NCBI GenBank assembly: GCA_963792395.1
Contig: CAWBWE010000020.1
Span: 169,255 to 233,254 of the forward strand
Source: an uncultured Bacteroidales bacterium
Lineage (GTDB): Bacteria; Bacteroidota; Bacteroidia; Bacteroidales; GCA-2748055
Reading direction: 5' to 3'
Length of the DNA stretch: 64,000 bases
Below the pieces are notes generated by a model that saw only the letters and a list, made by a program, of their open reading frames with translations, was not told the DNA's origin and made no database searches. A program made the translations under genes and the position numbers. This document shows, piece by piece, positions 9,209 through 28,851 of the stretch; position 1 is the first letter of the stretch, and each line of letters starts with the position of its first letter.

Positions 9209-9328
9209 TATGCAGTCAATCTGTCAGATCCGTGTATTTCGGCACCGGCCACACCGATATGTCAATAAGCGTGCCAAGAAATAATACACGCGGACAGGGG
9301 TATTTGTTTAAAATGCCCCTGTTTCCGG

Positions 9329-10515
9329 TTATATGTAACTGATGGTGACTTCCTTCAGAAACTTTTCCTCCAGCATCCTGGCCATTCGTTTCACCACGGT
9401 TCTTCTGATCTCCAGGTCGATGGGAAGGTTTGGATCCTGGTGCGCAATATTTACCCTGGTCCCGATGATGAAGTGAATCTCATCACTCTGTTGTACCAGT
9501 TTCACAATCCGGTCGGCGGGACCTTTGCCCAGGGCATAGGAAGGAGAAAAATCTTTGAGTATCCGGGTTACCTTGGTGATGGTCAGTATGCCTTCGGTCA
9601 CCAGGTCAATTCCCTCCATATGTGAGACCGGTGGAAGCTCGGGATCCTCAAATACCAGGCTGTCTTCAATTTCCACACCCAGTTCACGGGCAATGATATC
9701 GGCAGTTGTGGCTCCGCAAATCACTTTTTTTCCTTTAAAAGCCCTCACGGTATTGCCCAGCTTTTTATCGTTTTCCTCTTCATAAGGCGGACCGGTAACT
9801 ATCATCAGCTTACGTGGTTTTCGAAAATAGATGCTGGCACAGCTGGTATCGTCTTTGGAACTGTAGCCATCGTTACGGTGAGCCATATTTACCATTTTCG
9901 ATGCCAGTTTGGCAGCGGAGATCTTGGGACTGTTCTGGACCAGTTTGAGGGAGTACTCCAGCATATTATCTCTTCCCCAGCCCAGGGGAAACTTGTCTGT
10001 TCCCAGACCCGACTGAGCAATGCCATCGCTGCAGAACAGGATCCTGTCCTCTTTCCTGGGTTCAAACTGGCAGGTAGCAGGATTTCCTTCCCTGATTTTT
10101 CTCGCTGTCAAGGATCAGGCTTTTCCAGCCCGGATCAAAGGGTTTGTTGTCTCTCAGGATGATGGTCTGCGGATTGTCAAACTCCAGGATGGTGATCAGA
10201 ACCGTCGTGTTCAATATCCACAATGGTAAAGGTGGAGTAGCTCATCTGTCGTTCACTGCATACCGGCAGGGTATTCATGATGATCTCGGCAATCTTCTCC
10301 ACCGCTTTATGCTCTATGGTGAAATTGACGGCCATGGTGGCGGTCAGGGTGGCAAGTACATTGGCTTTTACTCCATGTCCCATTCCATCGGAAAGCACTA
10401 CAATGGTCCGGTTCTCCTCTTTTACCTTCCGGCTGATAAATACATCTCCGCAGATCCGCTCATTGCCGTAATTGCGCTGATCGCAGGCGACCTCTATATA
10501 AAATTTACCACTCAT
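9329..10515 (-). pseudogene. PP2C/SpoIIE-family protein phosphatase (hydrogenase-sensor linked), frame-disrupted
   Basis: The N-terminal fragment reads ICGDVFISRKV...VVLSDGMGHGVKANVLA, a SpoIIE/PP2C metal-binding motif. The C-terminal fragment reads ILFCSDGIAQSG plus an extra ~150-aa domain. Two frame breaks occur near 10110-10180. The start overlaps the upstream stop (TAATG). Confidence 0.7.
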
Positions 10516-12383
10516 TACTTTTTCAGGTCCTGTCTTAGGTTGTAGGATTCGATGATGGAATTAAGCATTCTTTCAGTTTCTGATGCACCTTCTCCCAGGA
10601 TAAATCCGATTTGTTGCGCCAGGCTCAGGTTTTTGTCGATGACTTCTGTGAGTCTTTTTACCACCTCCTCTTTTTGCACTTCCGGAGCTGACATATCGCG
10701 GATCACTGCTCCCACAATCTTATCCTTTTCGATGACAAATACACTGACATTCAGGATTTTACCTTCGTGCCGGATATCCCTGTTGGTGATGGATTCATTG
10801 TGTGCCAGAACGTAGGTGAAGAGGTTGTAGAAATTGTAGGGGAGGAGGGTCTTTAAATCAGCTCCTGCAAGTCCGGGGACCACTTCGTTAATCTCCCTGG
10901 CATCTTCACCAAGCAAGGCGATAAAACTGTTCATTGGTTTGAATAATCTTCAGGTTCATGTCGCAGATGACCACCATGGAGGGTAGTTTATGCAGCATCC
11001 GCCGGACAATTTCAGAAGCTTCCCTGGCCGCATTCTTCTCCTTTTGGGCAAGTGCGTTCTGACTCTTTGAGGGCCTCCTGGGCCTGGGCCAGCTTTTCGT
11101 TGCTGATTTTGAGGGACTGAATGTGATCCTGCCGGTTCCTGGATGCATAGGTGTTGCACATTTCAGGAATGGCCAGCCCCTGTGCAATGGCGATGGCAAA
11201 GTCCGTGCAACTTGCATATCCACAGGCCCCGCAACCCACATCTGAGGGATTCTGCTGGTCCAAGTTCTTCCAGTATTTGCTTCAGATGGTTTTCTGAGGG
11301 GACGGGAAGGGATTGATCGTCTGCCTGGAAGCTGCGTTTCAGATTCAGGGAGGCAAACTCGGTCAATGCTGGCTTCCCAGGCATCGCGGTCCAGAGTCTT
11401 CAGGCGTTTTTCCACATATTTGATCAGCTGACTTCGCCTGAGGAATCTTTTACCTCCGGCACTTGTTCCCCTTCCCATGAGGAACTCTTTATAAAAGAGG
11501 TTAAAATGGTGTTCGATGGCTCCAATATTCTCTTCAAACTCTTTAATGGCATCCATCATTCCCTCACCTTCTACAGTGATTACGGGGCTTAGGTGCAGCT
11601 CTTCTTCGATTTCCGCAGCCTGTATGATTCCATTGGCCACCGGGAAAAAGGAGCCCTTATATCCAAGGGGATCATCAAAATCACTGTATTCCAGATCAGT
11701 TTCATGAATGCTGGGCCTCCGTGAAAAGCTCCCGGAGTTCTACAAAGGTGATGGCCAGGTCGATTCGACTGTCCCCTTCGAAATCGTCTGATCTCATCTT
11801 TGCTGGCAATTAAGGGGACTGATATAGACCAGGACCACTTCCTCACCTGCAATCTTCCGCACCACCATGGCCGTAGCAGCCACTGGAGGGAGAATGGGGG
11901 CCAGGTTGGGTACCAGGCCAGGGCTGTATTTTTCCACAAAGGAGACGGTCACCGGATCGTTTGACATGATATAGTATTTCCCCTTGCTCTTTTCAAAAAG
12001 CTCATTGTAGGCCCGGGCCACCAGATCCACCCCAAAGGCCACTTCATGAACATAGTCAAATCCCAGGTTCACGAAGCATCTGGACAAATTTTCTGTAATC
12101 CGTGATGTCGGGAAACTCACCTGCAATGGACGGATCCACCAGGGCAGCCACTTTCTTTCCTGCTTGTCAGGAGTTTATTCAGCTCATTTTTGGAATTACG
12201 TATCTCGATGGCCCCTGGTCCGCAAACAGCCACACAGCTTCCGCAGCCAATACATCTTTCGGGGATGATCTCTGGTTTCACCTTTTCGCTCTGTACCCTG
12301 ATGGCTTTCACCGGACAGGCCCTGACACATGCATAACAGGCGATGCAGGTTTCACTGTTTATTTTCAGGAGAGCTTCCATCAT
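10515..12383 (-). pseudogene. [FeFe]-hydrogenase-like sensory protein (2x[4Fe-4S] ferredoxin domain + degenerate H-domain + 4-Cys motif + PAS), frame-disrupted
   Basis: The N-terminus carries CIACYACVRACP and CIGCGSCVAVCP. The H-domain is a paralog of ORF 16940-18928, but the cluster cysteines are substituted (see findings). The C-terminal motif is CGACGYASCTDFAIAIAQGLAIPEMC. The PAS-like tail lies at 10515-10934. At least 5 frame breaks. Confidence 0.75.
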
Positions 12384-12391
12384 AGTTTGTT

Positions 12392-12646
12392 TTACATCTC
12401 TCCGAATTCATTTTCCAGGATCTCCAGGACATTCTCGTCACTTACCTCTTCATATACCTTTTGTCCAATTTTTAGCACCGGTCCCTCATTGCAGTCACTG
12501 AAACAGTGATTTCCTTTCAGGATAACCTCTCTTTCCAGTTGATGGTCCTTCAGGTATTTCTGAATCACCTGCAGTGTTTGTTTGTTTCCCCGGCTGAAAC
12601 AGGAGCTGCCCATGCAGATCTTAATCTCCTTTTCAAACAGTGTCAT
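12392..12646 (-). CDS. thioredoxin-like [2Fe-2S] ferredoxin (NuoE-fold, stand-alone)
   Basis: Intact 84-aa ORF. The cysteine pattern CMGSSC...CFSDC (Cx4C...Cx3C) is typical of NuoE/HydC-type 2Fe-2S domains. It is the first gene of the minus-strand sensor operon. Confidence 0.7.
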   Translation of the reverse strand: MTLFEKEIKICMGSSCFSRGNKQTLQVIQKYLKDHQLEREVILKGNHCFSDCNEGPVLKIGQKVYEEVSDENVLEILENEFGEM

Positions 12647-12660
12647 TTCGGTTGAGCATT

Positions 12661-12668
12661 CAAAGTTA
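12661..12668 (-). promoter_or_regulatory. candidate Bacteroidota -7 promoter element (TAacTTTG) for the ferredoxin/sensor/phosphatase operon
   Basis: The plus strand reads CAAAGTTA, which is TAACTTTG on the minus strand. This is an exact match to TAnnTTTG, 15 nt upstream of the ATG at 12646. Confidence 0.3.
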
Positions 12669-12708
12669 ATAAAATCAGTTCAGCTGTCGTAATTTATAAT
12701 CTATTCAA

Positions 12709-12745
12709 ATTGATTACTGTTTTTCAAATAACAAACATAATCAAT
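12709..12745. promoter_or_regulatory. 8-bp perfect inverted repeat ATTGATTA-N21-TAATCAAT in the divergent hydrogenase promoter region
   Basis: The arms lie at 12709-12716 and 12738-12745. A third ATTGATT copy lies at 12789-12795. Read directly from the sequence. Confidence 0.3.
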
Positions 12746-12752
12746 ATCTTTG
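12745..12752 (+). promoter_or_regulatory. candidate Bacteroidota -7 promoter element (TAtcTTTG) for hydCBA
   Basis: Exact TAnnTTTG match, 57 nt upstream of the hydC ATG (12809) and immediately upstream of the palindrome at 12760. Confidence 0.35.
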
Positions 12753-12759
12753 AGCGTTC

Positions 12760-12772
12760 TGTGAATATCACA
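12760..12772. promoter_or_regulatory. perfect palindrome TGTGA-ATA-TCACA (candidate operator)
   Basis: A 5+3+5 perfect inverted repeat, located where a transcription start would be expected downstream of the -7 box. Confidence 0.3.
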
Positions 12773-12808
12773 ATATTTCATGTTAAAAATTGATTCTGAT
12801 CCATTGCT

Positions 12809-13285
12809 ATGGATGAGCCACAGCACGAATAGAAGAGATTCTGCAGCGGTTTCCCCAGATCAAGAGGAATGCGCTGATTCCCCTGCTTCAGGCCATTCAG
12901 GATGAATTTGGATATATTTCTGAAGAAGCTATTGGCGCATCGGTGCTCATCTCTCTCTGCCCACCAGCAAGGTATACGGCCTGGCTACATTCTACAACCA
13001 GTTCACTTTTTCACCCAGAGGATTTTACCATGTGATGCTTTGTAATGGAACTTCCTGTCATATGGGAGGTTCCGGGGAATTGGTCAATGAAATCACCAAA
13101 CTGCTGGAGATCAAAGATGGAGAAACAACGCCGTGACGGACTTTTCAGCCTGGAAGTACAATCCTGTATCGGGGCCTGCGGACAATCACCGGTAATGGCG
13201 GTCAATGGGACCTATTATTCCGGGATCGACGGTAAAAGAGGTTAGGGAGATTATCAAACAATACCGGGAAGATGCAGAGAGATAG
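12809..13285 (+). pseudogene. hydC: [FeFe]-hydrogenase NuoE-like subunit (HydC), frame-disrupted
   Basis: Across frames it reads EEILQRFPQIKRNALIPLLQAIQDEFGYISEEAI...KVYGLATFYNQFTF...YHVMLCNGTSCHMGG...LFSLEVQSCIGACGQSPVMAVNG...VREIIKQYRE. This is the NuoE 2Fe-2S pattern. At least 3 frame breaks. Confidence 0.75.
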
Positions 13286-15208
13286 GGAGCTGTTACTGAA
13301 GCTGGCACAGAGTAATGGTTCTGAGCTGAATCCTGAAGAACAAGGCCTGAGGGACAAACTCAGGAAGATCCAGTGTAGACCAGGCCACTGGTCATGGTCA
13401 ACAGTTCAACTTCCGGAATTGTGGCCGGATCCCAAGCCACATGGAAAGCCATTGAACAGTATGCTTCGGATCGTTCCATAGAAATTGAACTGGCTGAAAC
13501 GGGAAGTATCGGACTGAGTTCAGAAGATCCGGTTGTTTCTGTTCAGATGCCGGGCCGTACCACGCATCTTTTTCAGCAGAATCACTGCAGAAAAGGTTCC
13601 CATCTTGCTGGATGATCTCTTTCACCAGGTGGTTCCGGATCAGATGCGTGATCGGCCAGCTCTCACAGGAAGGACAGGAGGCCTGGGCAGATGTTCCTTT
13701 CCTGGATGAGATTCCCTTTTTCGCTTTGCAGAGCCGGATGGTGATGGACGCCTGCGGAATCATCGATCCCTTTTCTCTGGAGGAATATGTGGCAGGCGGC
13801 GGATACAGGGCATTTCTGCTTACCATCCGCACCTATACCTTTCGTGAAGTTTGCGAGCTGGTGAAGAAGAGTGGTCTGAGGGGCCGGTCCGGCGGAGGTT
13901 TTCCCACGGGTGAAAAATGGAAAGCAGCCTTTGAGACTCCCTCGGATCAAAAATATCTGGTATGCAATGCCGAGGAGAGTGATCCCGGGGCCTTTATGGA
14001 TCGAACACTGATGGAGGGAAATCCATTTCAGTTGCTCGAAGGTATCTCCATTGCAGCCTATGCCATCGGGTCCAATCGGGCCTATATTTATATCCGCAGT
14101 GAATACAAGGATACCATCAGGCGTATCAACCATGCCATTAAGGAACTAAGGGAGATGGGACTCCTGGGGGATAATATCCTGGACAGTGGGTACAATCTGC
14201 AGATCTCCCTGCGTAAGGGTCCTGGAGCCTTTGTATGTGGTGAGGAAACTGCCCTGATAGCCAGCCTGGAAGGAAGAAGGGGAATGCCCGCTGCCAAGCC
14301 GCCCTATCCCTCCACTTCCGGTTACCTGGGACGTCCAACCGTGGTAAATAATGTGGAGACCCTCTCCAATTTGCCCGGGATCATCCGAAAGGGTCCGGAT
14401 TGGTTCAGAGGAATAGGGATGGATGGGTGTCCCGGGACCAAGATATTCAGTATCTCAGGCCGGGTGGCACTTTCCGGATTGGTAGAGGTACCCATGGGTA
14501 CCTCCTTTAATACCATTGTCAATGAGATTATTGGAGGGGTCAGAAAGGGCCGGGAACTGAAAGCACTACATGTGGGTGGCCCATCGGGCTGCATGGTTCC
14601 GGTGGAACTGATGGATCTACCCGTGACTTATGAGACTCTGAAGGAAAAAGGACTGGTCATGGGTTCGGGGGGAGTTCTGGTGATGGACGATAAGACCTGC
14701 GTGGTAAATACGGTCAGGTACTTTATGGAGTATTTGAATAAGCAGAGTTGCGGTAAGTGTATCCCTTGCAGGGAAGGAACAAGGCGAATGGCGGAGATCC
14801 TGGCCAGTATTACCCGAAAACCGGTGGATGAGGAGGGGACATACCACTCTGGAAAGGTTCAAAGGAGTGATGCAACTGGAAAGCCTGGCTGAGGTGATGA
14901 AGGATACTTCGCTTTGCGGTCTTGGACAGAATGCCCCTAATCCGGTAGTAAGCACCCTGAAGTATTTCAGGCACGAATACGAGGAGCATATTTTCGACAG
15001 ACGATGTCCCTCCAACACCTGCACGGAATTACGTACCTGGTTCATTGATGTGGACCTGTGCACCGGGTGCTCCATCTGCGCCAAAAGGTGTCCGGCCGAG
15101 GCCATCATTGGTACTGCCAGACACCCCTATTTTATTGTGCAGGAGAAGTGTATTGGGTGCGGGATCTGTTTTGATGTATGCAAGTTTTCGGCCGTCTACT
15201 ATAAATAG
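13272..15208 (+). pseudogene. hydB: [FeFe]-hydrogenase NuoF-like flavoprotein subunit (HydB), frame-disrupted
   Basis: The main fragment 13612-14892 has the FMN/NADH motifs GLRGRSGGGFPTGEKW, YLVCNAEESDPGAF and GAFVCGEETALIASLEG, plus the N3 cluster motif [11 protein letters not shown]. The C-terminal fragment 14828-15208 carries two 4Fe-4S motifs ([23 protein letters not shown]). At least 3 frame breaks. Confidence 0.85.
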
Positions 15209-15211
15209 GGA

Positions 15212-16939
15212 ATGATGGGAATTAAGCTGGAAGTTAACGGGACAAATATTGAAGCGGAGAAGGGGGAGACCATACTCTCCGCCCTGAATCGCCATGGCAT
15301 GCATGTGCCTACCATCTGCAGCATGAAAGACCTGACTCCCTCCGGAGCCTGCCGCATGTGTGTGGTGGAGGTGGAAGGAAAGGAAAACCTGGTCCCATCC
15401 TGCTCCTTTCCCGTGGAAGGTCCCTTGAAGATTAAAACCCACTCTCCCAGGGTTCTGAGGGCACGAAAGACCAATGTGGAGTTGTTACTGTCCAATCATC
15501 CAGACGATTGCCTCTACTGTGAGCGGAACGGTTCCTGCGAATTGCAATCGCTTTCCGAGGATTTGAATATCAGGGAGCGACGGATACCGGGAAAGCGAAC
15601 CCTTCATAAAATTGATAAATCAAGTCCGGCCATTATCCGGGATCCTTCCAAATGCATATTCTGTGGAAGATGTGTCAGGATCTGCGAGGAGATAATGAGT
15701 ACCTCTACTCTGGATTTTGCTCACCGGGGAAATGAATTGAGGATATCCACCACCCTGGGCAAGCCCTTGAATTATTCCAATTGCACTTCCTGCGGTCAGT
15801 GCCTGATCGCCTGTCCCACGGGGGCCCTGATCGAACATGTTCAATTTCCGGAGCTTGAAAGCCATATTCATGCCCCCGGGAAACTGGTGGTGGCCCAGTA
15901 CAGTCCGGCTGTGGCTATTTCCGTGGCTGAAAAGCTAGGGTATAAACCCGGAACCGATATGAGTGGCATCATCAACACCGTGTTGCACCGCTATGGATTC
16001 GACAAGGTTTTTGAAAGCTCTTTTGGAGCCGATCTTTTGATTCTGGAACAGGCCGAGATATACAAACAGGTAAGGAGCAGACAACAGGACTTTCCCCTGA
16101 TTACCAGCTCCTGTCCGGCCTGGATACATTATGCAGAACAGTATTATCCGGAACTGCTGCCTTTCCTTTCTCCCCTGAAGTCACCCCAGCAGATTAACGG
16201 GGCACTGATCAGGGAGTGGTATGCAGGAAACGGAAAGCAGGCGGATAAAGAGATTGTCTCTGTGCTGATTACTTCCTGCACGGCTGCCAAGGCAGAGGCC
16301 AGACGAATGGAGATGACCCGGGCAGGACTTCCCGTGATTGACCTTGTGCTGACTACCCGTGAGCTGCTGAGAATGATTAAACTCAGCGGACTGGAGCTGG
16401 ATCAGCTGGAGCCGGAACTTCCTGATGCCCCCTTCTGCTCTTTTGGTTCTGCCGGAAAACTGTCGGGAATTGCGGGTGGAGAAGTAGAAGCCACCATTCG
16501 CACCCTTTATGCGCAATATGCAGGGACAGAGATGCCGCCTTCGAAACTGCACAGGTTCCGGGTGCACAAGTCCTACCGGGAAATGAGCGTTAAAGCCGGC
16601 TCCTCGGAGATCAGGATAGGGGCAGTCAATGGACTGGCTAATGTGCATGCCGTGATTGAGGAGCTTAAGGCGGGAAAAAAGAAGCTGGATATTCTGGAGG
16701 TGATGGCCTGCCCGGAAGGATGTATCAACGGGGGAGGCCAACCAATCCCTGTGGATGATAAATTGCTTCGTGCCCGTTCTAAGGCCATCTACGACCTGGA
16801 TAACGGGAGCGAACTGCATACCGCTCATCAAAATCAGCCTGTTCAGGATATTTACAGGGATTTACTGGGGGAACCCGGAGGTCCCTTGAGCAGGAAGCTG
16901 CTCTATACCACCTTTTTTAAGCGGGAGGTTTTGCTATAA
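15212..16939 (+). CDS. hydA: [FeFe]-hydrogenase large subunit (HydA-like, M3 architecture) with non-canonical L1/L2 motifs
   Basis: Intact 575-aa ORF. It has an N-terminal 2Fe-2S domain (CSMKDLTPSGACRMCVVEV) and ferredoxin-type clusters (CIFCGRCVRIC, CTSCGQCLIACP). The H-domain L3 motif is EVMACPEGCINGGGQP. L1 reads TSSCPAW and L2 reads TSCTAAKAE. Confidence 0.9.
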   Translation: MMGIKLEVNGTNIEAEKGETILSALNRHGMHVPTICSMKDLTPSGACRMCVVEVEGKENLVPSCSFPVEGPLKIKTHSPRVLRARKTNVELLLSNHPDDCLYCERNGSCELQSLSEDLNIRERRIPGKRTLHKIDKSSPAIIRDPSKCIFCGRCVRICEEIMSTSTLDFAHRGNELRISTTLGKPLNYSNCTSCGQCLIACPTGALIEHVQFPELESHIHAPGKLVVAQYSPAVAISVAEKLGYKPGTDMSGIINTVLHRYGFDKVFESSFGADLLILEQAEIYKQVRSRQQDFPLITSSCPAWIHYAEQYYPELLPFLSPLKSPQQINGALIREWYAGNGKQADKEIVSVLITSCTAAKAEARRMEMTRAGLPVIDLVLTTRELLRMIKLSGLELDQLEPELPDAPFCSFGSAGKLSGIAGGEVEATIRTLYAQYAGTEMPPSKLHRFRVHKSYREMSVKAGSSEIRIGAVNGLANVHAVIEELKAGKKKLDILEVMACPEGCINGGGQPIPVDDKLLRARSKAIYDLDNGSELHTAHQNQPVQDIYRDLLGEPGGPLSRKLLYTTFFKREVLL

Positions 16940-18928
16940 ATGGAACAGTTACAGAAAAAGAGGGGCCTGGTTTACACGGTCAAGGATTTGTGCCGGGTAT
17001 GTTATACCTGCGTCAGGGAGTGCCCGGTGAAAGCTATCCGGATTGTGGACGGTCAGGCCGAGGTGGTGGTGGAAAGATGCATAGCTTGCGGAAACTGCAC
17101 CATCGTTTGTTCCCAGGGAGCAAAGGTATATGAGCGCTCCGTCGACCGGGTGCATGCGCTCCTGCAGTTCGAAAAAGAGGTGATTGCCATTGTTGCACCA
17201 AGTTACGTTGCTGAGTTTGAAGAGATTCCGGATATGGCTCTTTTTGCCGGGATGTTGAAAAAACTGGGATTTAGTCAGCTCTTTGAGGTGGGTATGGGAG
17301 CCGATCTGGTGGCAGAAGCCTATGAAAAACTGATCAACGGATCTCCGGGCAAAGGATTCATCAATTCCGATTGTCCGGCCATTGTCTCCTATGTTCAAAA
17401 ATACCATCCCGATCTGATTGGTACACTCACCCCGGTGGTTTCCCCTATGGTAGCAACGGTAAGGTATATCAGAGAGGTAGAGAAGAGCCAGGCAAAGGTT
17501 GTTTTTATCGGACCCTGTGTGGCCAAAAAAGAGGAATCCCATGAAGTGGATGAGGTGATTACTTTTGCAGAATTGCGAACCATGTTCACCTCCATACGGA
17601 TCAGGGCTTCCAATGTGGAAGCTGCGGCCTTCTCCCCGCCACTGGCCAAAAAAGGGGCAGGTTTTCCCGTAAGCAGAGGCTTGCTTCAGTCTATGAACCT
17701 GGAGGGAAATCATGTGGACCAACGGGTCATAGTAGCTGAAGGCCGGGTTCATTTTCAGGAGGCCATCCGGGAATATGCTTCGGGCAGGCTGGGTTCCAAA
17801 CAACTTGAATTGCTCTGTTGTGAAGGGTGTATCATGGGCCCGGGAACCAGTCCCGGTGGGAAGAAATTTGTACGCAGAAGCCTGGTGCTTAATCACCTGT
17901 ACGAAAGAATTGACCAGAACCATGGAGAGAGTGAGGCCATAAGGCCGGAGGGCATTCATCTGGATCTTAGCCGCTCCTTTAGAAGGGATGATCAACGCCT
18001 GCAGGATTCATCGGAGGATGAGATCCAAAAGGTGCTTCAGCAAATGGGAAAATTTTCCCAACAGGACCACCTGGATTGTGGCGCATGCGGGTATGATACC
18101 TGCCTGAGCCATGCGCGGGCCATTACACAGGGACTTGCCGAGGTGGAGATGTGCCTCCCTTATTCCATAGACACCCTGCACCGGACCATACACAAGCTGG
18201 ACGATTCCAAACACAAGTTGCTCTCCGTGGAACAGGCTCTCAGGCAGAGTGAAAAGCTGGCACATATGGGTCAGCTATCCGCGGGGATCGCTCATGAATT
18301 AAATAATCCCCTGGGTGTGGTGATTATGTACAGCAACCTGCTGCTGGAAGAGGTGGGAAATGACCGGCAGTTGAAGGAAGACCTGGAATTAATTGTGGAG
18401 CAGGCCGGGCGATGCAAATCCATTGTGGGCGGATTACTTAATTTTGCCAGGAAGAACCAGGTAAGGTACAGTACCATGGATCTGGAAGAGTTGATGAGGA
18501 AAAGTACAGGTTCTCTGATTTTTCCGGAAAACATCCGCTATACCCTGAACAACCAGCTTTCCAATCCTTTTGCCGAAATGGACGGGGAACAAATGGTCCA
18601 GGTCATCAGCAATCTCTTAAAAAATGCAATGGAAGCCATGCCCGGGGGTGGGGCCCTGACCGTAAGCCTCACTGACAGCCAAGACTGGGTGAATATCAGG
18701 ATCCAGGATGAAGGCAGCGGGATCTCCCCCGAAGAGCTTGAAAAGGTATTTGAACCCTTTTATACGACCAAGGGAATTGGAAAGGGGACCGGACTCGGAT
18801 TGGCGACTACCTATGGGATCGTCAAGATGCACCGGGGACAGATCGATGTGAACTCCAATACCAATCCTGAAAAAGGAGCCACGGGAACCGAATTCATGGT
18901 GAAGCTTCCGCGAAAGCGTGCCACCTAA
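16940..18928 (+). CDS. sensory [FeFe]-hydrogenase-like domain fused to a histidine kinase (HydS-HK)
   Basis: Intact 662-aa ORF. The N-terminus has 2x[4Fe-4S] motifs (CRVCYTCVRECP, CIACGNCTIVC). The H-domain has L1 NSDCPAIV, L2 GPCVAKKEE and L3 LLCCEGCIMGPG. A 4-Cys motif CGACGYDTCLSHARAITQGLAEVEMC follows. HisKA reads SAGIAHELNNPL. HATPase_c reads NLLKNAMEAM...GTGLGLATTYGIV. Confidence 0.85.
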   Translation: MEQLQKKRGLVYTVKDLCRVCYTCVRECPVKAIRIVDGQAEVVVERCIACGNCTIVCSQGAKVYERSVDRVHALLQFEKEVIAIVAPSYVAEFEEIPDMALFAGMLKKLGFSQLFEVGMGADLVAEAYEKLINGSPGKGFINSDCPAIVSYVQKYHPDLIGTLTPVVSPMVATVRYIREVEKSQAKVVFIGPCVAKKEESHEVDEVITFAELRTMFTSIRIRASNVEAAAFSPPLAKKGAGFPVSRGLLQSMNLEGNHVDQRVIVAEGRVHFQEAIREYASGRLGSKQLELLCCEGCIMGPGTSPGGKKFVRRSLVLNHLYERIDQNHGESEAIRPEGIHLDLSRSFRRDDQRLQDSSEDEIQKVLQQMGKFSQQDHLDCGACGYDTCLSHARAITQGLAEVEMCLPYSIDTLHRTIHKLDDSKHKLLSVEQALRQSEKLAHMGQLSAGIAHELNNPLGVVIMYSNLLLEEVGNDRQLKEDLELIVEQAGRCKSIVGGLLNFARKNQVRYSTMDLEELMRKSTGSLIFPENIRYTLNNQLSNPFAEMDGEQMVQVISNLLKNAMEAMPGGGALTVSLTDSQDWVNIRIQDEGSGISPEELEKVFEPFYTTKGIGKGTGLGLATTYGIVKMHRGQIDVNSNTNPEKGATGTEFMVKLPRKRAT

Positions 18929-18945
18929 TTAATTAAAAAGAAGTA

Positions 18946-19341
18946 ATGAGCGAGATAAAAAAGAAGACCATTTTGCTGGCTGACGATGATCCGGATTTGA
19001 TATTCCAGGTGAAACATCACCTGGAGCGCTGGGGATATGAGGTGGTTGCTGTGGAGTCGCGCGCGGATGCCGAACGATACCTGGAGAGTGGATGCCCCGA
19101 CCTGGCCATCCTCGATCTGATGATGGAGGAGGAGGACAGCGGATTTATTCTCTCCTACCGGATAAAGAAATGCCGGCCCGGGGTACCGGTGATTATCTCT
19201 ACGGCCGTGACTGCCGAGCGGGGTATCTCTTTTGATATAAACAGTCCGGGGAGCAAGTCCTGGATCAGAGCGGACCACTACCTGGAGAAGGGCTACAGAA
19301 TGGAAGAATTGAAATTACTTGTCAAAAAATACCTCGATTAA
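18946..19341 (+). CDS. single-domain response regulator (receiver only)
   Basis: Intact 131-aa ORF with ILLADDDPD...DLAILDLMM...VIISTA receiver motifs and no output domain. Confidence 0.85.
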   Translation: MSEIKKKTILLADDDPDLIFQVKHHLERWGYEVVAVESRADAERYLESGCPDLAILDLMMEEEDSGFILSYRIKKCRPGVPVIISTAVTAERGISFDINSPGSKSWIRADHYLEKGYRMEELKLLVKKYLD

Positions 19342-19345
19342 TCCT

Positions 19346-20470
19346 ATGGAGACTTTATCTGTTCTGGTGGTTGACGATGAGCCGGGAATCCGCTCGGGTG
19401 TGAAAAGGATCCTGGAAGGGCACCACGTGAGTTTCCCCTTCATGGATGAAGATTATCAATTTATATGCAGGGAGGCAGCCAGCGGGGAAGAAGCACTGCT
19501 TATGCTGGAAGAATCCCCGCCCGAGATACTCCTGCTGGATAATAAGCTGCCCGGGATGGACGGGATGGAGGTGCTGGAGATCATCAAGCAGAAGAATATG
19601 GATATCATGGTGGCAATGATCACCTCCTATGCTTCGCTGGAGATTGCGGCCAAAGCTACCGATGACGGGGCCCGGGATTTTATTCCGAAGCCATTTACTC
19701 CGGCAGAGCTGAAGTCCAGCATTGATCTGATCACCAAGCAGTATTTCCTCAAAAAGATCACCCGGACCATGAAGGAGGAGGGAAAGAAGATTCGTTACCA
19801 GTTTCTTTCCGTTTTGAGCCATGAGCTCAAATCACCCCTCAATGCCCTGGAGGGTTACCTGCAGATGATGAAGGAACGTGAACTTGGAGAGGACTTGAAG
19901 GAGTATGATGCGCTTATTGATCGCTCACTTCAGCGTGTGGAGGGGATGCGCTCGCTGATCATGGACCTGCTTGATTTTACCAAGATCAGGCTGGAGAGAA
20001 AAGAGGAGAAAATAGAGCGGGTGGACCTCATGGAACGGGCACAGCTGGCCCTGGCCACCATTAAACCCCTGGCCCATATGCGGAATGTTACGATTAGCTT
20101 TTCGGGAGAGGCGATTTATTACGACGCAGATCCATCGGACCTGGACATCATGTTTAACAATCTGCTCTCCAATGCGGTCAAATATAACCGTGACGGAGGA
20201 GAAGTGGAGCTGGTGCTCCGACAGAAGGAGCAGATGCTTGAAATACTCGTGAAGGATACGGGGATCGGGATGAGCGAAGAGGAGGTTTCCCAGTTATTTA
20301 AAGAGTTTGTCCGCATTAAAAACAGCCGGACCAGGGGAATTACCGGTTCGGGCCTGGGCCTCTCCATTGTAAGTAAAATAGCTGAGCTTTACGGGGGACA
20401 CATTGATGTGAACAGCGTCCCCGAAAAGGGGAGCGAATTCAGCGTAATTCTTCCTCTTCACGGAGACTGA
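19346..20470 (+). CDS. hybrid receiver-histidine kinase (REC + HisKA + HATPase_c)
   Basis: The ATG at 19346 gives METLSVLVVDDEPGIR...LLLDNKLPGMDG...FIPKPF (REC), then FLSVLSHELKSPLN (H-box) and GSGLGLSIVSKIAELYGG (G2 box). The ORF-track start at 19319 overlaps the upstream gene. Confidence 0.85.
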   Translation: METLSVLVVDDEPGIRSGVKRILEGHHVSFPFMDEDYQFICREAASGEEALLMLEESPPEILLLDNKLPGMDGMEVLEIIKQKNMDIMVAMITSYASLEIAAKATDDGARDFIPKPFTPAELKSSIDLITKQYFLKKITRTMKEEGKKIRYQFLSVLSHELKSPLNALEGYLQMMKERELGEDLKEYDALIDRSLQRVEGMRSLIMDLLDFTKIRLERKEEKIERVDLMERAQLALATIKPLAHMRNVTISFSGEAIYYDADPSDLDIMFNNLLSNAVKYNRDGGEVELVLRQKEQMLEILVKDTGIGMSEEEVSQLFKEFVRIKNSRTRGITGSGLGLSIVSKIAELYGGHIDVNSVPEKGSEFSVILPLHGD

Positions 20471-20500
20471 CGGGTATCAACAGAATTGTTGATCTGAAAC

Positions 20501-20516
20501 TGTGATTTAATTAACA
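20501..20516. promoter_or_regulatory. candidate Rex operator TGTGA-N6-TAACA upstream of rex
   Basis: TGTGATTTAATTAACA has half-sites spaced as in the Rex consensus TTGTGAA-N4-TTCACAA (Clostridial variant TTGTTAA-N4-TTAACAA). One half matches each variant. It lies 38 nt upstream of the rex ATG. The adjacent TATTTTG resembles a -7 box but is one T short. Confidence 0.35.
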
Positions 20517-20553
20517 ATATTTTGTAGTATTGTATCAGTCCAAATTGATAGCT

Positions 20554-21177
20554 ATGACCTTGCCGGAGCGAACGGTTGAACGTTTGAGTGAATACCGCAG
20601 ATCCCTGCTTCAGTGCCTGGAGGAGGGAAAGACCCACATATTTTCACATGAACTGGCTGATCTCCATCATAATACTGCGGTTCAGGTTCGCAGGGATATT
20701 ATGTTTATCGGGTATACGAGCATGCAGCGAAAAGGCTATGATGTCAGAGAACTGGTGGATGTTATCGGGGAGATTCTGGATTCCGAGAGCGGGCTTAATG
20801 TGGCCGTGATCGGTGTGGGGAATCTGGGCCGCGCAGTGACCACCTACTTTGTAGGAAAGCGTTCCAAACTCAATATACTGGCTACTTTCGATGTGGATAC
20901 CAATAAAATTGACCGGGTGATTTCCGGGGTAAAATGCTATCCGCTAAGCAGGCTGAAAGAAGTGGTTCAGGAACAGAACATCTCCATTGCCATCATGACG
21001 GTACCAGCCGATTCTGCTACCGAAGTGACCGCAAACCTGGTGGATGCCGGGATTAAGGGTTTGATGAATTTCACGACCATACCCCTGAATGTACCCCCGG
21101 AAGTATACCTGGATGAATATGATATGATTACCTCCCTGGAGAAAGTAGCCTATTTCGTGAAGAGTCCCCAAAAATAG
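20554..21177 (+). CDS. rex: redox-sensing transcriptional repressor Rex
   Basis: The N-terminus reads ERTVERLSEYRRSL (winged-helix). The Rossmann motif is NVAVIGVGNLGRAV. The length is typical of Rex. The start is placed at the ATG at 20554; the ORF track uses TTG at 20530. Confidence 0.85.
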   Translation: MTLPERTVERLSEYRRSLLQCLEEGKTHIFSHELADLHHNTAVQVRRDIMFIGYTSMQRKGYDVRELVDVIGEILDSESGLNVAVIGVGNLGRAVTTYFVGKRSKLNILATFDVDTNKIDRVISGVKCYPLSRLKEVVQEQNISIAIMTVPADSATEVTANLVDAGIKGLMNFTTIPLNVPPEVYLDEYDMITSLEKVAYFVKSPQK

Positions 21178-22062
21178 ATGCAGGTACATCAGTCCATGGA
21201 GCATTTGCCGGAGATTCCGTCGCCGGTTGTGACCGTAGGTTCCTTCGATGGGGTACATGTGGGTCACCGGGCAATTATCCGCCGACTAAAGAACCTGGCC
21301 CGGGAAGTGAATGGATCCTCTGTACTGATCACCTTTTTCCCACACCCTCGTAAAGTGCTGTATCCGGATGCTGCAGGGAAGGATCTGAACTTGATTAATT
21401 CCCAATCTGAAAAGATCGAGCTTCTGGCTGAAGCGGGCCTGGATCACCTGATTATCCTGGAGTTTACCCTTGATTTTGCAAAGACCAGTTCCGCTGACTT
21501 TGTAGAACATTACCTGGTAGGGAAGCTTCATGCCCATACCATTGTGGTGGGATTTAACCACTATTTTGGCCACAACAGGGAAGGGAGCTTCAGCTCTCTT
21601 TACAAGGCCAGGGATCTTTATGGATTTCAGGTGGAAGAAATTCCTCAGCAAGAGATCCAGAATGAAACCGTTAGCAGCACCAAAATCCGAAGAGCCCTGA
21701 AGGAGGGAAACATTCAGCGGGCCAATGCTTACCTGGAGCATCACTATATGATCCGGGCAAAAATGGAACGGCTTCCGGACCAGGGGGACTTGCCTCTGCA
21801 GCCCTGTTTTTGGATTCCTGTAAGCGATCCTTTGAAAGCGCTTCCGCCAGCAGGGGACTATGCAGCTTCATTTTCACACGAGGATCACTACGAGAAGGCC
21901 CTGGTGTGTATCAATGAAAAACAAATACTTCTTTATCCACTTGAGATTCAATTACCCGGCCTGGACGAGGAGGGCCTTATCCGTTTTCATAAACGATTGG
22001 AAGCCCGGGGAGGATCCAGCCTTCCAAAGCAGCTGGATGCTGTCAGGGAACTCATTTATTAG
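21178..22062 (+). CDS. ribF: RibF-like FAD synthetase with divergent riboflavin-kinase domain
   Basis: The N-terminus VVTVGSFDGVHVGHRAIIRRL...VLITFFPHP is an FMN adenylyltransferase domain. I cannot find the GxxLGFPTAN kinase motif in the C-terminal ~120 aa. There is no gap to rex. Confidence 0.75.
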   Translation: MQVHQSMEHLPEIPSPVVTVGSFDGVHVGHRAIIRRLKNLAREVNGSSVLITFFPHPRKVLYPDAAGKDLNLINSQSEKIELLAEAGLDHLIILEFTLDFAKTSSADFVEHYLVGKLHAHTIVVGFNHYFGHNREGSFSSLYKARDLYGFQVEEIPQQEIQNETVSSTKIRRALKEGNIQRANAYLEHHYMIRAKMERLPDQGDLPLQPCFWIPVSDPLKALPPAGDYAASFSHEDHYEKALVCINEKQILLYPLEIQLPGLDEEGLIRFHKRLEARGGSSLPKQLDAVRELIY

Positions 22063-22074
22063 TATATTCGTTTT

Positions 22075-22317
22075 ATGGAAAAACGCATCGGAGCGATCCT
22101 GATACTGATCGGGAAGGAGGGTGATATTCACCGGATAAATGCTATTATTTCCGAACATGCCGAGCTGATCCTGGGGCGGCAGGGAATCCCCCTCAGGGAC
22201 CGGTCTACCAGCGTCATTTCCCTGGTACTGGAAGGGAACACCGACAGGATGGGATCACTCAGTGGCCAGTTGGGTCGTTTGCCCGGGGTCAAAGTCAAAT
22301 CGGTGCTGGCCGGTTGA
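22075..22317 (+). CDS. TM1266-family putative iron-only hydrogenase system regulator (ACT/NikR-C-like)
   Basis: 80-aa ORF MEKRIGAILILIG...VISLVLEGNTDRMGSLSGQLGRLPGVKVKSV. It matches my recollection of the small TM1266/TIGR03959 family, which is normally found beside HydEFG or hydrogenase genes. Confidence 0.65.
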   Translation: MEKRIGAILILIGKEGDIHRINAIISEHAELILGRQGIPLRDRSTSVISLVLEGNTDRMGSLSGQLGRLPGVKVKSVLAG

Positions 22318-22430
22318 TAAAGCGCGTTCAAATGTTAAAAAACATCTCTTTTTTGTTAAATGCGCCGGAGCAAAAAACAAATCGGGCTTTTATTGGTTAT
22401 ATATAGCGAAAAGTAATTGTTGGGGTGCAA

Positions 22431-22492
22431 GGCAAGTTGCGAATCTTTTGAGGGTTTTAGGAAGAATAGCAACTTGCCTTATTTTTTTTATT
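22431..22492 (+). terminator. hairpin GGCAAGTTGC-N28-GCAACTTGCC followed by a T-rich run
   Basis: 10-bp perfect stem (22431-22440 and 22469-22478). TTATTTTTTTTATT follows at 22479-22492, downstream of the TM1266-like gene. The 28-nt loop is large for a classical intrinsic terminator. Confidence 0.3.
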
Positions 22493-22581
22493 CCTGTTCT
22501 TAGGCAGTGTTCTAAGACACTCCCGATCGGGCGATCACACAAATCTGCTTTGTTATCTTTGAATCTGTTAAACCGATTCGA

Positions 22582-24646: not shown

Positions 24647-24694
24647 CACATGATATACTTGGCAAAGTCTTTAACTTCACATAGATTTAAAAGT

Positions 24695-26003: not shown

Positions 26004-26134
26004 GAACCATCCCATCCCGAAATAGATATTTTTATCCCTAAATAAAAGCATCCTGAGCAAACCTGTCCAATAACAGTTAAGAAGGAATTTGAGAATTGTT
26101 ACATTTGGTAATTGTACTTAAAAAATAGCATAGT

Positions 26135-26363: not shown

Positions 26364-26375
26364 AGTCAAGTTAGT

Positions 26376-28235: not shown

Positions 28236-28238
28236 TTA

Positions 28239-28812: not shown

Positions 28813-28851
28813 TAGAGGATCAGGAATAGATCCTTTTGTGGGTTCATGTGA

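What the first reader, a model, noticed from the sequence alone, without database searches (positions are those of the whole stretch)
16940..18928. Single-polypeptide H2-sensor kinase: H-cluster domain fused directly to HisKA/HATPase_c, with Asp at the proton-relay cysteine position
This intact 662-aa ORF keeps all four cysteines expected to hold the H-cluster. They are in L1 SDCP, L2 GPCVAKKEE with Lys and Glu in register, and L3 CCEGC. It also has two N-terminal ferredoxin clusters and an extra Cx2Cx4Cx16C motif. In L1, the residue equivalent to the first Cys of canonical TSCCP (the proton-relay Cys of prototypical enzymes) is Asp. L3 lacks the GGGQP tail (IMGPG). The H-domain runs through a coiled linker straight into a histidine kinase. 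Gas binding could therefore control autophosphorylation within one protein. To my knowledge this enzyme class has not been biochemically characterised.
Basis: partly seen in the sequence, partly recalled or inferred. Interest (0 to 1): 0.72.

Follow-up and report, generated by a model that had tools for sequence, protein, structure and literature searches.

The report
Hydrogenase-like sensor fused to histidine kinase
This gene encodes a hydrogenase-type metal-cluster domain fused directly to a histidine kinase, a probable hydrogen/redox sensor sitting behind a hydrogenase operon; the type is already catalogued from genomes but has never been tested in the lab, and this Bacteroidales lineage always carries an unusual aspartate beside the active site.

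Summary
ORF 16940-18928 (+) is intact and encodes 662 aa. It has two ferredoxin-type 4Fe-4S motifs, an [FeFe]-hydrogenase H-domain, a C-terminal Cx2Cx4Cx16C cluster, about 37 helical residues, then HisKA and HATPase_c. All four H-cluster cysteines are present, as are the Lys and Glu of L2.

Three independent alignments place Asp144 at the CpI Cys299 position. The best CpI match in the PDB is the engineered C299D variant.

The class is not new. HydDB lists histidine-kinase-linked sensory [FeFe] hydrogenases. A 2024 paper describes this cluster type (bfuCBA plus a kinase-bearing "BfuT"), including the two-sensor arrangement in Bacteroidota. At least 575 species-level genomes encode relatives, and 42 of 150 distant representatives of the sensor module are kinase fusions.

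What is distinctive is the Asp. It is invariant in 81/81 Bacteroidota loci but occurs in only 2 of 150 representatives, and in none of the other kinase fusions.

The gene lies in a strongly conserved locus: hydC-hydB-hydA-sensor-RR-REC/HK-rex-ribF.

Best reading: an H2/redox-responsive kinase that regulates the adjacent hydrogenase. This is inferred, and no member has been characterised. It is a new member of a known, uncharacterised kind and a good experimental model.

The parts
16940..18928 (+). Sensor kinase gene, 662 aa: Fer4x2 - H-domain - 4-Cys FeS domain - helical linker - HisKA - HATPase_c
   Evidence: Intact ORF. Pfam domains. Same gene called in a 97%-identical relative.
16973..17122 (+). 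N-terminal 2x[4Fe-4S] ferredoxin-like domain (residues 12-61; Cys18/21/24/28 and Cys47/50/53/57)
   Evidence: Pfam Fer4_10 and Fer4_9. Motifs. All eight Cys invariant in 53 homologues.
17174..17842 (+). H-domain (residues 79-301), Fe_hyd_lg_C
   Evidence: Pfam E = 5.5e-42. HMMER hits to CpI, T. maritima HydA and others. Foldseek match to CbA5H over 324 columns, rmsd 4.3.
17366..17377 (+). L1 motif SDCP (143-146). Asp144 (17369-17371) sits at the CpI Cys299 proton-relay position; Cys145 corresponds to Cys300.
   Evidence: Alignments. Asp present in 107/107 close homologues and 81/81 loci, but only 2/150 distant representatives.
17513..17536 (+). L2 motif PCVAKKEE (192-199): Cys193 = C355, Lys196 = K358, Glu199 = E361. 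Gly191 replaces Met353.
   Evidence: GPCxxKKxE present in 81/81 loci.
17816..17830 (+). L3 motif CCEGC (293-297): Cys294 = C499, Cys297 = C503, with an extra invariant Cys293. Followed by IMGPG instead of GGGQP.
   Evidence: LLCCEGCIMG(P/A)G present in 81/81 loci.
18077..18154 (+). C-terminal Cx2Cx4Cx16C cluster motif (380-405), Pfam FeS PF04060. This is the hallmark accessory cluster of group C/D sensory enzymes.
   Evidence: Conserved in about 144/150 representatives. Described for groups C and D in PMC8163306 and PMC13104023.
18155..18265 (+). Helical linker (406-442) joining the FeS domain to the DHp helices. Too short to hold a PAS domain.
   Evidence: AF2 secondary structure shows helices H406-420, H427-440 and H446-471, at low pLDDT in a monomer model. 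No Pfam domain found here.
18266..18916 (+). Histidine kinase core: HisKA (443-506, phospho-acceptor His452 at 18293-18295) and HATPase_c (548-659)
   Evidence: Pfam. PDB ZraS E = 7.7e-29. Foldseek ZraS E = 3.6e-18. H, N, G1, F and G2 box residues invariant. AHELNNPL present in 81/81 loci.
15212..16939 (+). hydA (575 aa): M3-type [FeFe] hydrogenase large subunit of a HydABC-type enzyme. Non-canonical: TSSCP, and CTAAK in L2. Its stop codon abuts the sensor's start codon.
   Evidence: Pfam and NCBIfam, with FeFe_hydrog_A6 at 612 bits, below the 765 cut-off. Motifs.
12803..15208 (+). hydC and hydB (NuoE-like and NuoF-like subunits). Both are broken by single-base indels in this window.
   Evidence: ORF fragments. 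Intact 160-aa and 643-aa genes in relative L001. Indel map. The start coordinate is approximate.
18946..19341 (+). Stand-alone receiver-domain response regulator (131 aa), 17 nt downstream of the sensor
   Evidence: Pfam Response_reg. Acidic pocket DDD and the LDLMM acceptor Asp are visible in the sequence. Adjacent to the sensor in nearly all loci.
19346..20470 (+). REC-HisKA-HATPase_c hybrid kinase (374 aa from the ATG used in L001)
   Evidence: Pfam. Sequence. Conserved synteny.
20554..22317 (+). rex (redox-sensing repressor), ribF (FAD synthetase) and a TM1266-like "iron-only hydrogenase system regulator". These are conserved downstream neighbours.
   Evidence: NCBIfam Rex at 195.8 bits against a cut-off of 126, and RibF. 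Pfam TM1266-like. Synteny.
9329..12646 (-). Divergent second sensor unit: 84-aa thioredoxin-like 2Fe-2S protein (12392-12646), a PAS-type H-domain paralogue (about 10515-12383) and a SpoIIE/PP2C phosphatase (about 9329-10515). The paralogue is frameshifted here and has lost all H-cluster cysteines in this lineage.
   Evidence: ORF fragments. Intact genes in L001 with Pfam Fer4, Fe_hyd_lg_C, FeS, weak PAS and SpoIIE. Motif loss.

Best explanation
The gene encodes a cytoplasmic, soluble one-polypeptide sensor kinase of the putative-sensory (group C) branch of [FeFe] hydrogenases.

**Proposed mechanism**
1. The N-terminal half binds two accessory [4Fe-4S] clusters, an H-cluster and a C-terminal [4Fe-4S] cluster.
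2. H2 is split slowly at the H-cluster. Asp144 hydrogen-bonds to the azadithiolate amine, as the engineered Asp does in CpI C299D.
3. The resulting reduced state of the H-cluster/Fe-S chain changes the conformation of the C-terminal cluster domain. That domain is joined by a single short helix to the DHp helices of a dimeric HisKA kinase.
4. This switches autophosphorylation at His452.
5. Phosphate passes to the adjacent single-domain receiver and/or the REC-HK hybrid. Together with Rex (an NADH sensor), these tune expression or activity of the co-transcribed hydCBA hydrogenase and fermentative redox balance.

**What is shown**
- The architecture and the conservation of ligands.
- The register of the Asp.
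- Intact kinase catalytic motifs.
- Operon-like packing and very strong synteny.
- Reuse of the same sensor cassette with many different signalling outputs.

**What is inferred**
- That an H-cluster is actually bound.
- That H2, rather than the redox pool, is the signal.
- The direction of the switch, the role of Asp144 and the regulatory target.
For: **The protein itself**
- Domain order and motifs are as described.
- The four H-cluster Cys, K358/E361 (Lys196/Glu199), the APS motif (86-88, equivalent to CpI A230-P231-S232) and Phe242 (F417) are invariant in 53 aligned homologues of 58-89% identity. The motifs are present in 81/81 loci.
- This purifying selection contrasts with the PAS paralogue in the same locus, which has lost these residues in this lineage.
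- The kinase boxes are invariant, and the fold matches ZraS and HK853.

**Genomic context**
- The hydA stop abuts the sensor start. The response regulator follows after 17 nt and the REC-HK after 4 nt.
- The order hydC-hydB-hydA-sensor-RR-REC/HK-rex-ribF is kept in almost every one of 80 species-level loci with enough flank, at 55-85% protein identity.

**The sensor cassette elsewhere**
- The Fer4-H-domain-FeS cassette is fused in other lineages to PAS, PAS-HK-REC, GAF-GAF-HK, sigma54-AAA+-HTH, PAS-sigma54 and GGDEF-HD-GYP outputs. This is the behaviour of a signal-input module.

**Literature**
- Group C/D enzymes have low turnover, stabilised reduced states and H2-induced secondary-structure changes (PMC8163306, PMC13104023).
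- CpI C299D keeps 30-80% activity. Its carboxylate H-bonds the adt amine, and reduced states accumulate instead of Hhyd (PMC6226526).
Against: - No group C or D protein has been shown to signal in response to H2 in vivo or in vitro. The role is called putative throughout the literature (PMC8924675).
- In TamHydS the C-terminal cluster had negligible effect on catalysis and was not reduced. This challenges signalling through that cluster (PMC13104023).
- The canonical proton pathway beyond Asp144 is not conserved in the clade. Position 126 is R/E/G and position 164 is T/A/M, so the function of the Asp is unclear.
- No DNA-binding response regulator lies in the conserved cluster, so the output is unknown.
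- HydE/F/G maturases were not found among the ten large window ORFs scanned. Their presence in the genome is assumed from hydA.
- The AF2 model is only moderate (pLDDT 69.9) and is poor in the Fer4 domain and the linker.
Confidence: 0.55

Rival explanations
1. A redox-pool sensor rather than a gas sensor. The Fe-S chain equilibrates with ferredoxin or with the HydABC complex, and the kinase reports the cellular electron pressure. An H-cluster may or may not be present and is not the primary signal input.
For: - The domain has two ferredoxin-type clusters at the N-terminus.
- The locus couples the sensor to Rex, an NADH sensor, and to 2-oxoacid:ferredoxin oxidoreductase genes.
- The PAS paralogue in the same locus keeps its accessory clusters after losing every H-cluster ligand. 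The scaffold can therefore be maintained without an H-cluster.
- PMC11406978 also reports group C1 proteins lacking recognisable H-cluster motifs.
Against: The HK-fused protein keeps all four H-cluster Cys, the CN-binding Lys, Glu, APS and Phe242 without exception across 81 loci. This is hard to explain if the [2Fe] site were dispensable.
Confidence: 0.22
2. A catalytically competent hydrogenase subunit ("BfuT") that works with, or substitutes for, the neighbouring non-canonical HydA. The kinase would provide feedback. Asp144 would act as a working proton donor, as in C299D.
For: - Asp is the only substitution that preserves activity in group A enzymes (PMC6226526, PMC10055695).
- The sensor's L2 (CVAKKEE) is more canonical than that of the adjacent HydA. 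HydA lacks both the relay Cys (TSSCP) and the Lys at the K358 position (CTAAK).
- Across 75 loci, HydA has Ala, Ser or another residue instead of Cys in 50.
- PMC8542988 raises a metabolic role for a group C enzyme in a bifurcating cluster.
Against: - The E279 and S319 equivalents are not conserved.
- Met353 is Gly and Met497 is Leu, as in the slow sensory enzymes (PMC8163306).
- The GGGQP tail is absent.
- A fused kinase and an adjacent receiver argue for signalling.
Confidence: 0.1
3. A sensor of an H-cluster inhibitor or oxidant (O2 or CO). The H-cluster would act as a sacrificial or reversible detector that shuts down hydrogenase expression on exposure.
For: - H-clusters react with O2 and CO.
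- Sensory enzymes show altered CO and O2 reactivity (PMC8163306).
- An extra invariant Cys293 sits next to the ligand Cys294. It could take part in protection or redox chemistry.
Against: - There is no direct evidence.
- The tight, conserved coupling to hydCBA and rex fits product or redox feedback more simply.
- The protective Cys of CbA5H corresponds to position 299, which is Asp here.
Confidence: 0.05

Closest known systems
BfuT of "sub-type V" BfuABC gene clusters (group C3 [FeFe] hydrogenase with a histidine-kinase domain), described in Hydrogenedentota, Caldithrix abyssi and Bacteroidota (Perlabentimonas gracilis, Tenuifilum thalassicum, Williamwhitmania taraxaci); PMC11406978
   Same: - The H-domain protein carries a His-kinase domain and is encoded immediately downstream of bfuA/hydA.
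- In Bacteroidota a second, PAS-type bfuT lies upstream of bfuC.
- The window shows exactly this arrangement. One related locus is a Tenuifilaceae MAG.
   Different: - That paper gives no residue-level analysis of the kinase-fused protein in the passages I read. The invariant Asp at the relay position, the extra Cys293 and the decay of the PAS paralogue are not mentioned there.
- I did not align the window protein directly to the named species' proteins.
HydDB [FeFe] group C1, "histidine kinase-linked (putative)" (PMC5037454)
   Same: A putative H2 sensor that works through a histidine kinase. It has the Fer4-H-domain-FeS cassette without the group-A proton pathway.
   Different: - In the described C1 examples the kinase is a neighbouring gene (PMC6163223, PMC8542988), or only a HATPase_c is fused (PMC11406978). 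Here a complete HisKA+HATPase_c is fused.
- The HydDB classifier was not run, so assignment to C1 or C3 is open.
Thermotoga maritima HydS (TmHydS), the characterised group C sensory [FeFe] hydrogenase (PMC10055695)
   Same: - N-terminal 2x[4Fe-4S], an H-cluster with four Cys, and a C-terminal 4-Cys cluster.
- Met353 replaced by Gly, and a non-Cys residue at position 299.
- Encoded beside a HydABC-type hydrogenase.
   Different: - TmHydS has Ala at position 299 and a PAS domain as its output.
- The window protein has Asp at 299 and no PAS domain. The FeS domain joins the kinase directly.
CpI C299D, CrHydA1 C169D and CaHydA C298D engineered variants (PDB 6GLZ; PMC6226526, PMC3485046)
   Same: An identical SDCP sequence at L1. 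6GLZ is the best-scoring CpI sequence in the PDB search.
   Different: The engineered proteins keep the full group-A relay (E279, S319, E282, R286) and Met353/Met497. The window protein does not conserve the E279 and S319 equivalents.
HoxBC-HoxJ regulatory [NiFe] hydrogenase system (HydDB group 2b)
   Same: A hydrogenase-derived H2 sensor coupled to a histidine kinase that controls hydrogenase genes. It is a functional analogue.
   Different: - The metal site and protein family are unrelated.
- Sensor and kinase are separate polypeptides.
- This comparison rests on general knowledge and on the HydDB table (PMC5037454). It was not tested here.

Membership tests
[FeFe]-hydrogenase H-domain (H-cluster-binding fold) | Significant match to Fe_hyd_lg_C and fold similarity to solved hydrogenases | tested here: met
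   Pfam E = 5.5e-42. HMMER hits to CpI and TmHydA. Foldseek match to CbA5H 6TTL.
[FeFe]-hydrogenase H-domain (H-cluster-binding fold) | Four cysteines ligating [4Fe-4S]H and bridging to [2Fe]H (C300, C355, C499, C503 in CpI) | tested here: met
   Cys145, Cys193, Cys294 and Cys297 are aligned. They are present in 81/81 loci.
[FeFe]-hydrogenase H-domain (H-cluster-binding fold) | Second-sphere residues that hold the [2Fe] subsite (K358, E361, A230-P231-S232, F417) | tested here: met
   Lys196, Glu199, Ala86-Pro87-Ser88 and Phe242 are all invariant or nearly so in alignment A1.
Prototypical group A [FeFe] hydrogenase | Relay Cys (TSCCP) and the E279/S319/E282/R286 proton pathway | tested here: not met
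   Asp144 replaces the Cys. Positions 126 and 164 are variable in the clade.
Prototypical group A [FeFe] hydrogenase | Met353, Met497 and the L3 tail GGGQP | tested here: not met
   Gly191, Leu292 and IMGPG are found instead. NCBIfam group A and B models score far below their cut-offs.
Putative sensory [FeFe] hydrogenases (groups C/D; M2f/M2e-like) | N-terminal 2x[4Fe-4S] plus the C-terminal Cx2Cx4Cx16C cluster domain | tested here: met
   Defined in PMC8163306 and PMC13104023.
Putative sensory [FeFe] hydrogenases (groups C/D; M2f/M2e-like) | A signalling domain fused or adjacent, and linkage to a group A3 hydABC operon | tested here: met
   HisKA/HATPase_c is fused. hydCBA lies immediately upstream in 75 of 81 loci; the remainder are mostly truncated contigs.
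Putative sensory [FeFe] hydrogenases (groups C/D; M2f/M2e-like) | Assignment to a HydDB subgroup (C1, C2 or C3) by the HydDB classifier or phylogeny | not tested
   HydDB is not available here. The literature calls kinase-bearing relatives both C1 and C3 (PMC11406978).
Putative sensory [FeFe] hydrogenases (groups C/D; M2f/M2e-like) | An H-cluster actually bound, with low turnover and stabilised reduced states | not testable with these tools
   Requires expression, artificial maturation, and FTIR/EPR/activity assays.
HisKA-type (class I) sensor histidine kinase | H-box His, plus N, G1, F and G2 boxes | tested here: met
   His452 in AHELNNPL, N558/N562, D590xGxG, F604EPF and G614xGTGL are all invariant. 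The H-box is present in 81/81 loci.
HisKA-type (class I) sensor histidine kinase | DHp four-helix-bundle plus CA fold, with a cognate receiver nearby | tested here: met
   Foldseek ZraS E = 3.6e-18, TMt 0.73. A receiver gene lies 17 nt downstream.
HisKA-type (class I) sensor histidine kinase | Signal-dependent autophosphorylation and phosphotransfer | not testable with these tools
   A biochemical assay is needed.

The most novel reading that the evidence does not exclude
In this Bacteroidales lineage the kinase-fused protein may be a working hydrogenase in its own right, rather than a near-inert sensor. A natural Asp proton donor would make this possible, and the protein would couple its own H2 turnover to phosphorylation. 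Meanwhile the neighbouring "catalytic" HydA, which has lost the relay Cys and the K358 Lys in most species, would have a different or reduced role. This would invert the assumed catalyst/sensor assignment in a widespread gene cluster. It would also give the first natural example of the C299D chemistry.
Probability: 0.1. Interest if true: 0.8.

Novelty: new member of a known kind. Interest (0 to 1): 0.42.

Why it matters
Whether "sensory" [FeFe] hydrogenases sense H2 at all is still unproven. The two characterised proteins have no enzymatic output to read. A single polypeptide that joins the H-cluster module through one helix to a canonical histidine kinase gives a direct in-vitro readout: autophosphorylation with and without H2. 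That would turn a long-standing inference into a simple experiment.

The clade's invariant Asp is the natural counterpart of the only activity-preserving mutation at the proton-relay position. It therefore offers a test of how that residue tunes H-cluster states in a native scaffold.

The locus is conserved across hundreds of anaerobic Bacteroidales species. It combines two hydrogenase-derived sensors, Rex and a hydrogenase, so it is probably a major control point for fermentative H2 production in sediments and digesters.

None of this is unique to this window. It applies to the whole family.

Tried and rejected
1. **Restored group-A proton pathway.** I asked whether Asp144 sits in such a pathway. 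The query has Glu126, Thr164 and Glu129 at the E279, S319 and E282 positions. Across 107 close homologues only Glu129 is conserved, so I rejected the idea.
2. **Rex operators.** A scan for TTGTGAA-N4-TTCACAA with up to 3 mismatches found 3 hits against 3.5 expected. This is uninformative.
3. **Intergenic palindrome.** TGTGAATATCACA at 12760-12772, in the divergent intergenic region, looked promising. It is absent from all 81 related loci, so I dropped it.
4. **Promoter and terminator scans.** The sigma-70 promoter and terminator scans of 12300-22600 were at chance level. Bacteroidota promoters are not covered by that scan.
5. **HydE/F/G maturases.** I looked among ten large window ORFs and found none. 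The rest of the window was not scanned, and many ORFs there are fragmented.
6. **Exact-sequence look-up.** The window protein is not on record in the assembly collection. The 97%-identical P0001 was used instead.
7. **Pfam tally of all 150 representatives.** I replaced it with local phmmer classification and a 10-protein sample.
8. **Greening et al. 2016 (ISME J).** The paper could not be retrieved.
9. **AF2 model.** It gave no usable information on the Fer4 domain or the linker geometry (pLDDT below 50). Coordinates are not exposed, so the surroundings of Asp144 could not be inspected.
Full report
**1. The observation**

The ORF at 16940-18928 (+) is open and encodes 662 aa. Its ATG directly follows the TAA stop of the upstream hydA.

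Pfam finds these domains:
- Fer4 dicluster domain, residues 12-61.
- Fe_hyd_lg_C, residues 79-301, E = 5.5e-42.
- The "putative Fe-S cluster" domain PF04060, residues 378-407.
- HisKA, residues 443-506.
- HATPase_c, residues 548-659.

No PAS domain is found, and there is no room for one. Cys405 and the start of HisKA are 37 residues apart, and the AF2 model makes that stretch helical.

- Two ferredoxin-type Cys motifs.
- L1 SDCP (143-146).
- L2 PCVAKKEE (192-199).
- L3 CCEGC (293-297), followed by IMGPG rather than GGGQP.
- Cx2Cx4Cx16C (380-405).

**2. The register of the Asp**

Three independent alignments agree.
- HMMER against all PDB sequences aligns query INSDCPAIV with CpI FTS-C-CPGWV. 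The best-scoring CpI sequence is 6GLZ, the engineered C299D variant, which itself reads SDCP at this spot. The C299A variant 6GLY and wild type follow.
- BLASTP against the window's own HydA aligns SDCP with SSCP, and CC-EGC with ACPEGC.
- In a MAFFT alignment of 150 distant representatives, the two columns after the Asp are Cys (148/150) and Pro (139/150).

The resulting residue map is:

| Window protein | CpI equivalent |
|---|---|
| Asp144 | C299 |
| Cys145 | C300 |
| Gly191 | M353 |
| Cys193 | C355 |
| Lys196 | K358 |
| Glu199 | E361 |
| Leu292 | M497 |
| Cys294 | C499 |
| Cys297 | C503 |
| Ala86-Pro87-Ser88 | A230-P231-S232 |
| Phe242 | F417 |

**3. How common the fusion and the Asp are**

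A search of the sensor module (residues 1-420) against 1.84 billion representatives gave 922 proteins with E <= 1e-30.

Among the best 150 (32-56% identity):
- 42 end in a histidine kinase.
- About 33 of those have the same direct FeS-to-kinase join, with tails of 240-294 aa. The window protein's tail is 257 aa.
- The same cassette is also fused to PAS (at least 66), PAS-HK-REC, GAF-GAF-HK, sigma54-AAA+-HTH with or without PAS, and GGDEF-HD-GYP outputs.

The cassette therefore behaves as a portable input module of signal-transduction proteins.

At the C299 position the 150 representatives show Ala 50, Pro 25, Thr 20, Ser 20, Cys 13, Asn 9, His 4 and Asp 2. This agrees with the published tally for HydDB sensory enzymes: Ala ~43%, Cys 17%, Pro ~10% and Ser ~10% (PMC10055695).

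None of the other 42 kinase-fused representatives has Asp.

In the window protein's own clade, by contrast, Asp is fixed:
- 107/107 full-length homologues of 59-97% identity.
- 81/81 genomic loci.

The clade is large. The best 80 are all Bacteroidota, mostly uncultured Bacteroidales, Rikenellaceae, Tenuifilaceae and Lentimicrobiaceae.

**4. Genomic context**

A 97%-identical relative on a 1.09-Mb contig (L001) shows the locus with intact genes:
- Minus strand: SpoIIE phosphatase, a 618-aa Fer4-H-domain-FeS-(PAS) protein, and an 84-aa thioredoxin-like 2Fe-2S protein.
- Plus strand: hydC (160 aa), hydB (643 aa), hydA (574 aa), the sensor kinase, a 131-aa receiver, a REC-HisKA-HATPase hybrid, rex, ribF and a TM1266-like "iron-only hydrogenase system regulator".
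- Further downstream: ADP-forming acetyl-CoA synthetase, an aminotransferase, a ferredoxin and a 2-oxoacid:ferredoxin oxidoreductase.

tblastn of these proteins against 80 further loci shows the block from SpoIIE to ribF in the same order and orientation. This holds in nearly every locus with enough flank, at protein identities down to about 45-55%.

In the window the intergenic gaps are 0 nt (hydA to sensor), 17 nt (sensor to RR) and 4 nt (RR to REC-HK). Co-transcription is likely but not shown.

**5. Function**

Evidence that the protein binds an H-cluster:
- All four ligands, the CN-contacting Lys, Glu361, the APS motif and Phe417 are strictly conserved.
- The PAS paralogue in the same locus has lost these residues in this lineage. 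There L1 is SNDP, L2 is SPLIASKDE and L3 is FYKEFLMG. This shows what relaxed selection looks like in this fold.

Evidence that the kinase half is competent:
- His452 in AHELNNPL, together with the N, G1, F and G2 boxes, is invariant.
- The model's best structural matches are ZraS, HK853, YycG and CckA DHp-CA modules.

The most economical mechanism is that H2 oxidation, or the redox state of the H-cluster/Fe-S chain, alters the C-terminal cluster domain. Through the single connecting helix this would alter the DHp bundle. The kinase/phosphatase balance toward the adjacent receivers would shift as a result.

Asp144 probably hydrogen-bonds the azadithiolate amine, as the engineered Asp does in CpI C299D. 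That variant keeps 30-80% activity and accumulates reduced states rather than Hhyd (PMC6226526). However, the equivalents of E279 and S319 vary freely in the clade, and only the E282 equivalent, Glu129, is largely conserved. The Asp is therefore not part of a rebuilt group-A relay, and its role is open.

Cautions:
- No group C or D enzyme has been shown to signal (PMC8924675).
- No DNA-binding response regulator lies in the conserved block.

**6. Comparison with what is known**

- HydDB already lists group C1 as "histidine kinase-linked (putative)" (PMC5037454).
- Published C1 examples have the kinase as a neighbouring gene (PMC6163223, PMC8542988).
- PMC11406978 reports HATPase_c in Hydrogenedentota C1 proteins. 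It defines a "sub-type V" cluster in which a group C3 protein with a histidine-kinase domain (BfuT) follows bfuA.
- That paper notes the same organisation in Caldithrix abyssi. It also notes that three cultured Bacteroidota (Perlabentimonas gracilis, Tenuifilum thalassicum, Williamwhitmania taraxaci) carry a second bfuT upstream of bfuC. This is the window's arrangement.
- The paper also notes Ser in the P1 motif of many BfuA proteins, which matches the TSSCP of the window's HydA.

Biochemically, only TmHydS (Ala at position 299, PAS output) and TamHydS (group D) have been studied (PMC8163306, PMC10055695, PMC13104023). I found no study of a kinase-fused member.

The finding is thus a new member of a known but uncharacterised kind. 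The clade-fixed Asp, the extra Cys293 and the paralogue decay are details I did not find in the passages I read of the searched literature.

**7. Verdict**

It is a sound hypothesis and matches the field's view, but the class is not unrecognised and the mechanism is inferred.
- Interest is moderate. The protein, or any of its hundreds of orthologues including those in cultured strains, is an attractive system for finally testing H2 sensing by an [FeFe] hydrogenase with a direct phosphorylation readout. The natural Asp adds a specific mechanistic hook.

Noticed in passing
window 6917-15200 and 22300-28814 (compared with L001): Against a 92.6%-identical relative, the window carries 113 mostly single-base indels, chiefly insertions that are not in homopolymers. 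They break lon, SpoIIE, the PAS paralogue, hydC, hydB, the acetyl-CoA synthetase (34 gaps), the aminotransferase and the POR genes. There are none between about 16240 and 22300 (sensor, RR, REC-HK, rex, ribF, TM1266-like). hydA has two compensating indels at 16232 and 16239. This is either patchy assembly error or real pseudogenisation of everything around an intact regulatory block. Errors seem more likely because housekeeping genes are hit.
   Followed up: partly
window ~10515-12383 (-); L001:3590-5446 (-): The divergently encoded PAS-type H-domain paralogue, paired with a SpoIIE phosphatase, has lost all four H-cluster cysteines in this lineage. L1 is IMSNDPVTV, L2 is ISPLIASKDE and L3 is NLFYKEFLMGRG. 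It keeps the Fer4 and C-terminal 4-Cys motifs. In 9 of 54 loci position 300 is Asp rather than Cys. In most others the Cys ligands are kept, with Asn at position 299 (36 of 54).
   Followed up: partly
window 15212-16939 (+) and the hydA genes of L002-L081: The presumed catalytic HydA is non-canonical. L1 is TSSCP (Ser at the relay Cys) and L2 is TSCTAAKAE, which has no Lys at the K358 position. Across 75 loci position 299 of HydA is Ala 30, Cys 25, Ser 13, Asp 3 and other 3. Many have PCMAMKFE and a GAGLP tail. NCBIfam's group A6 model scores 612, below its 765 cut-off. PMC11406978 mentions Ser variants in BfuA.
   Followed up: partly
window 17816-17818 (Cys293): An extra cysteine immediately precedes the H-cluster ligand Cys294 and corresponds to CpI Ala498. 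It is invariant in the clade (107/107 and 81/81) but occurs in only 11 of 150 distant representatives. Its function is unknown.
   Followed up: no
representatives P0144, P0150, P0157, P0168, P0170, P0191, P0223, P0184, P0205: The same Fer4-H-domain-FeS cassette is fused in other lineages to sigma54-activator AAA+-HTH modules (with or without PAS), to GGDEF-HD-GYP, to GAF-GAF-HK and to PAS-HK-REC. These outputs go beyond the three (kinase, MCP, phosphatase) named in HydDB.
   Followed up: partly
window 20554-22317 (+): rex, ribF (FAD synthetase) and a TM1266-like "iron-only hydrogenase system regulator" follow the two-component genes. rex and ribF are conserved there in most of the 80 related loci.
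   Followed up: partly
window 12760-12772: A perfect palindrome, TGTGAATATCACA, lies in the divergent intergenic region between the 2Fe-2S gene and hydC. It is not present in any of the 81 related loci, so it is probably not a conserved operator.
   Followed up: yes
window 42331-44016 (+), 44013-45386 (-), 54784-56259 (-): Elsewhere in the window are a multihaem c-type cytochrome (doubled CXXCH, DmsE-like), a tryptophanase (807 bits, above its cut-off) and an ORF with a ClpP-related phage head-maturation protease domain, which may mark a prophage remnant.
   Followed up: no
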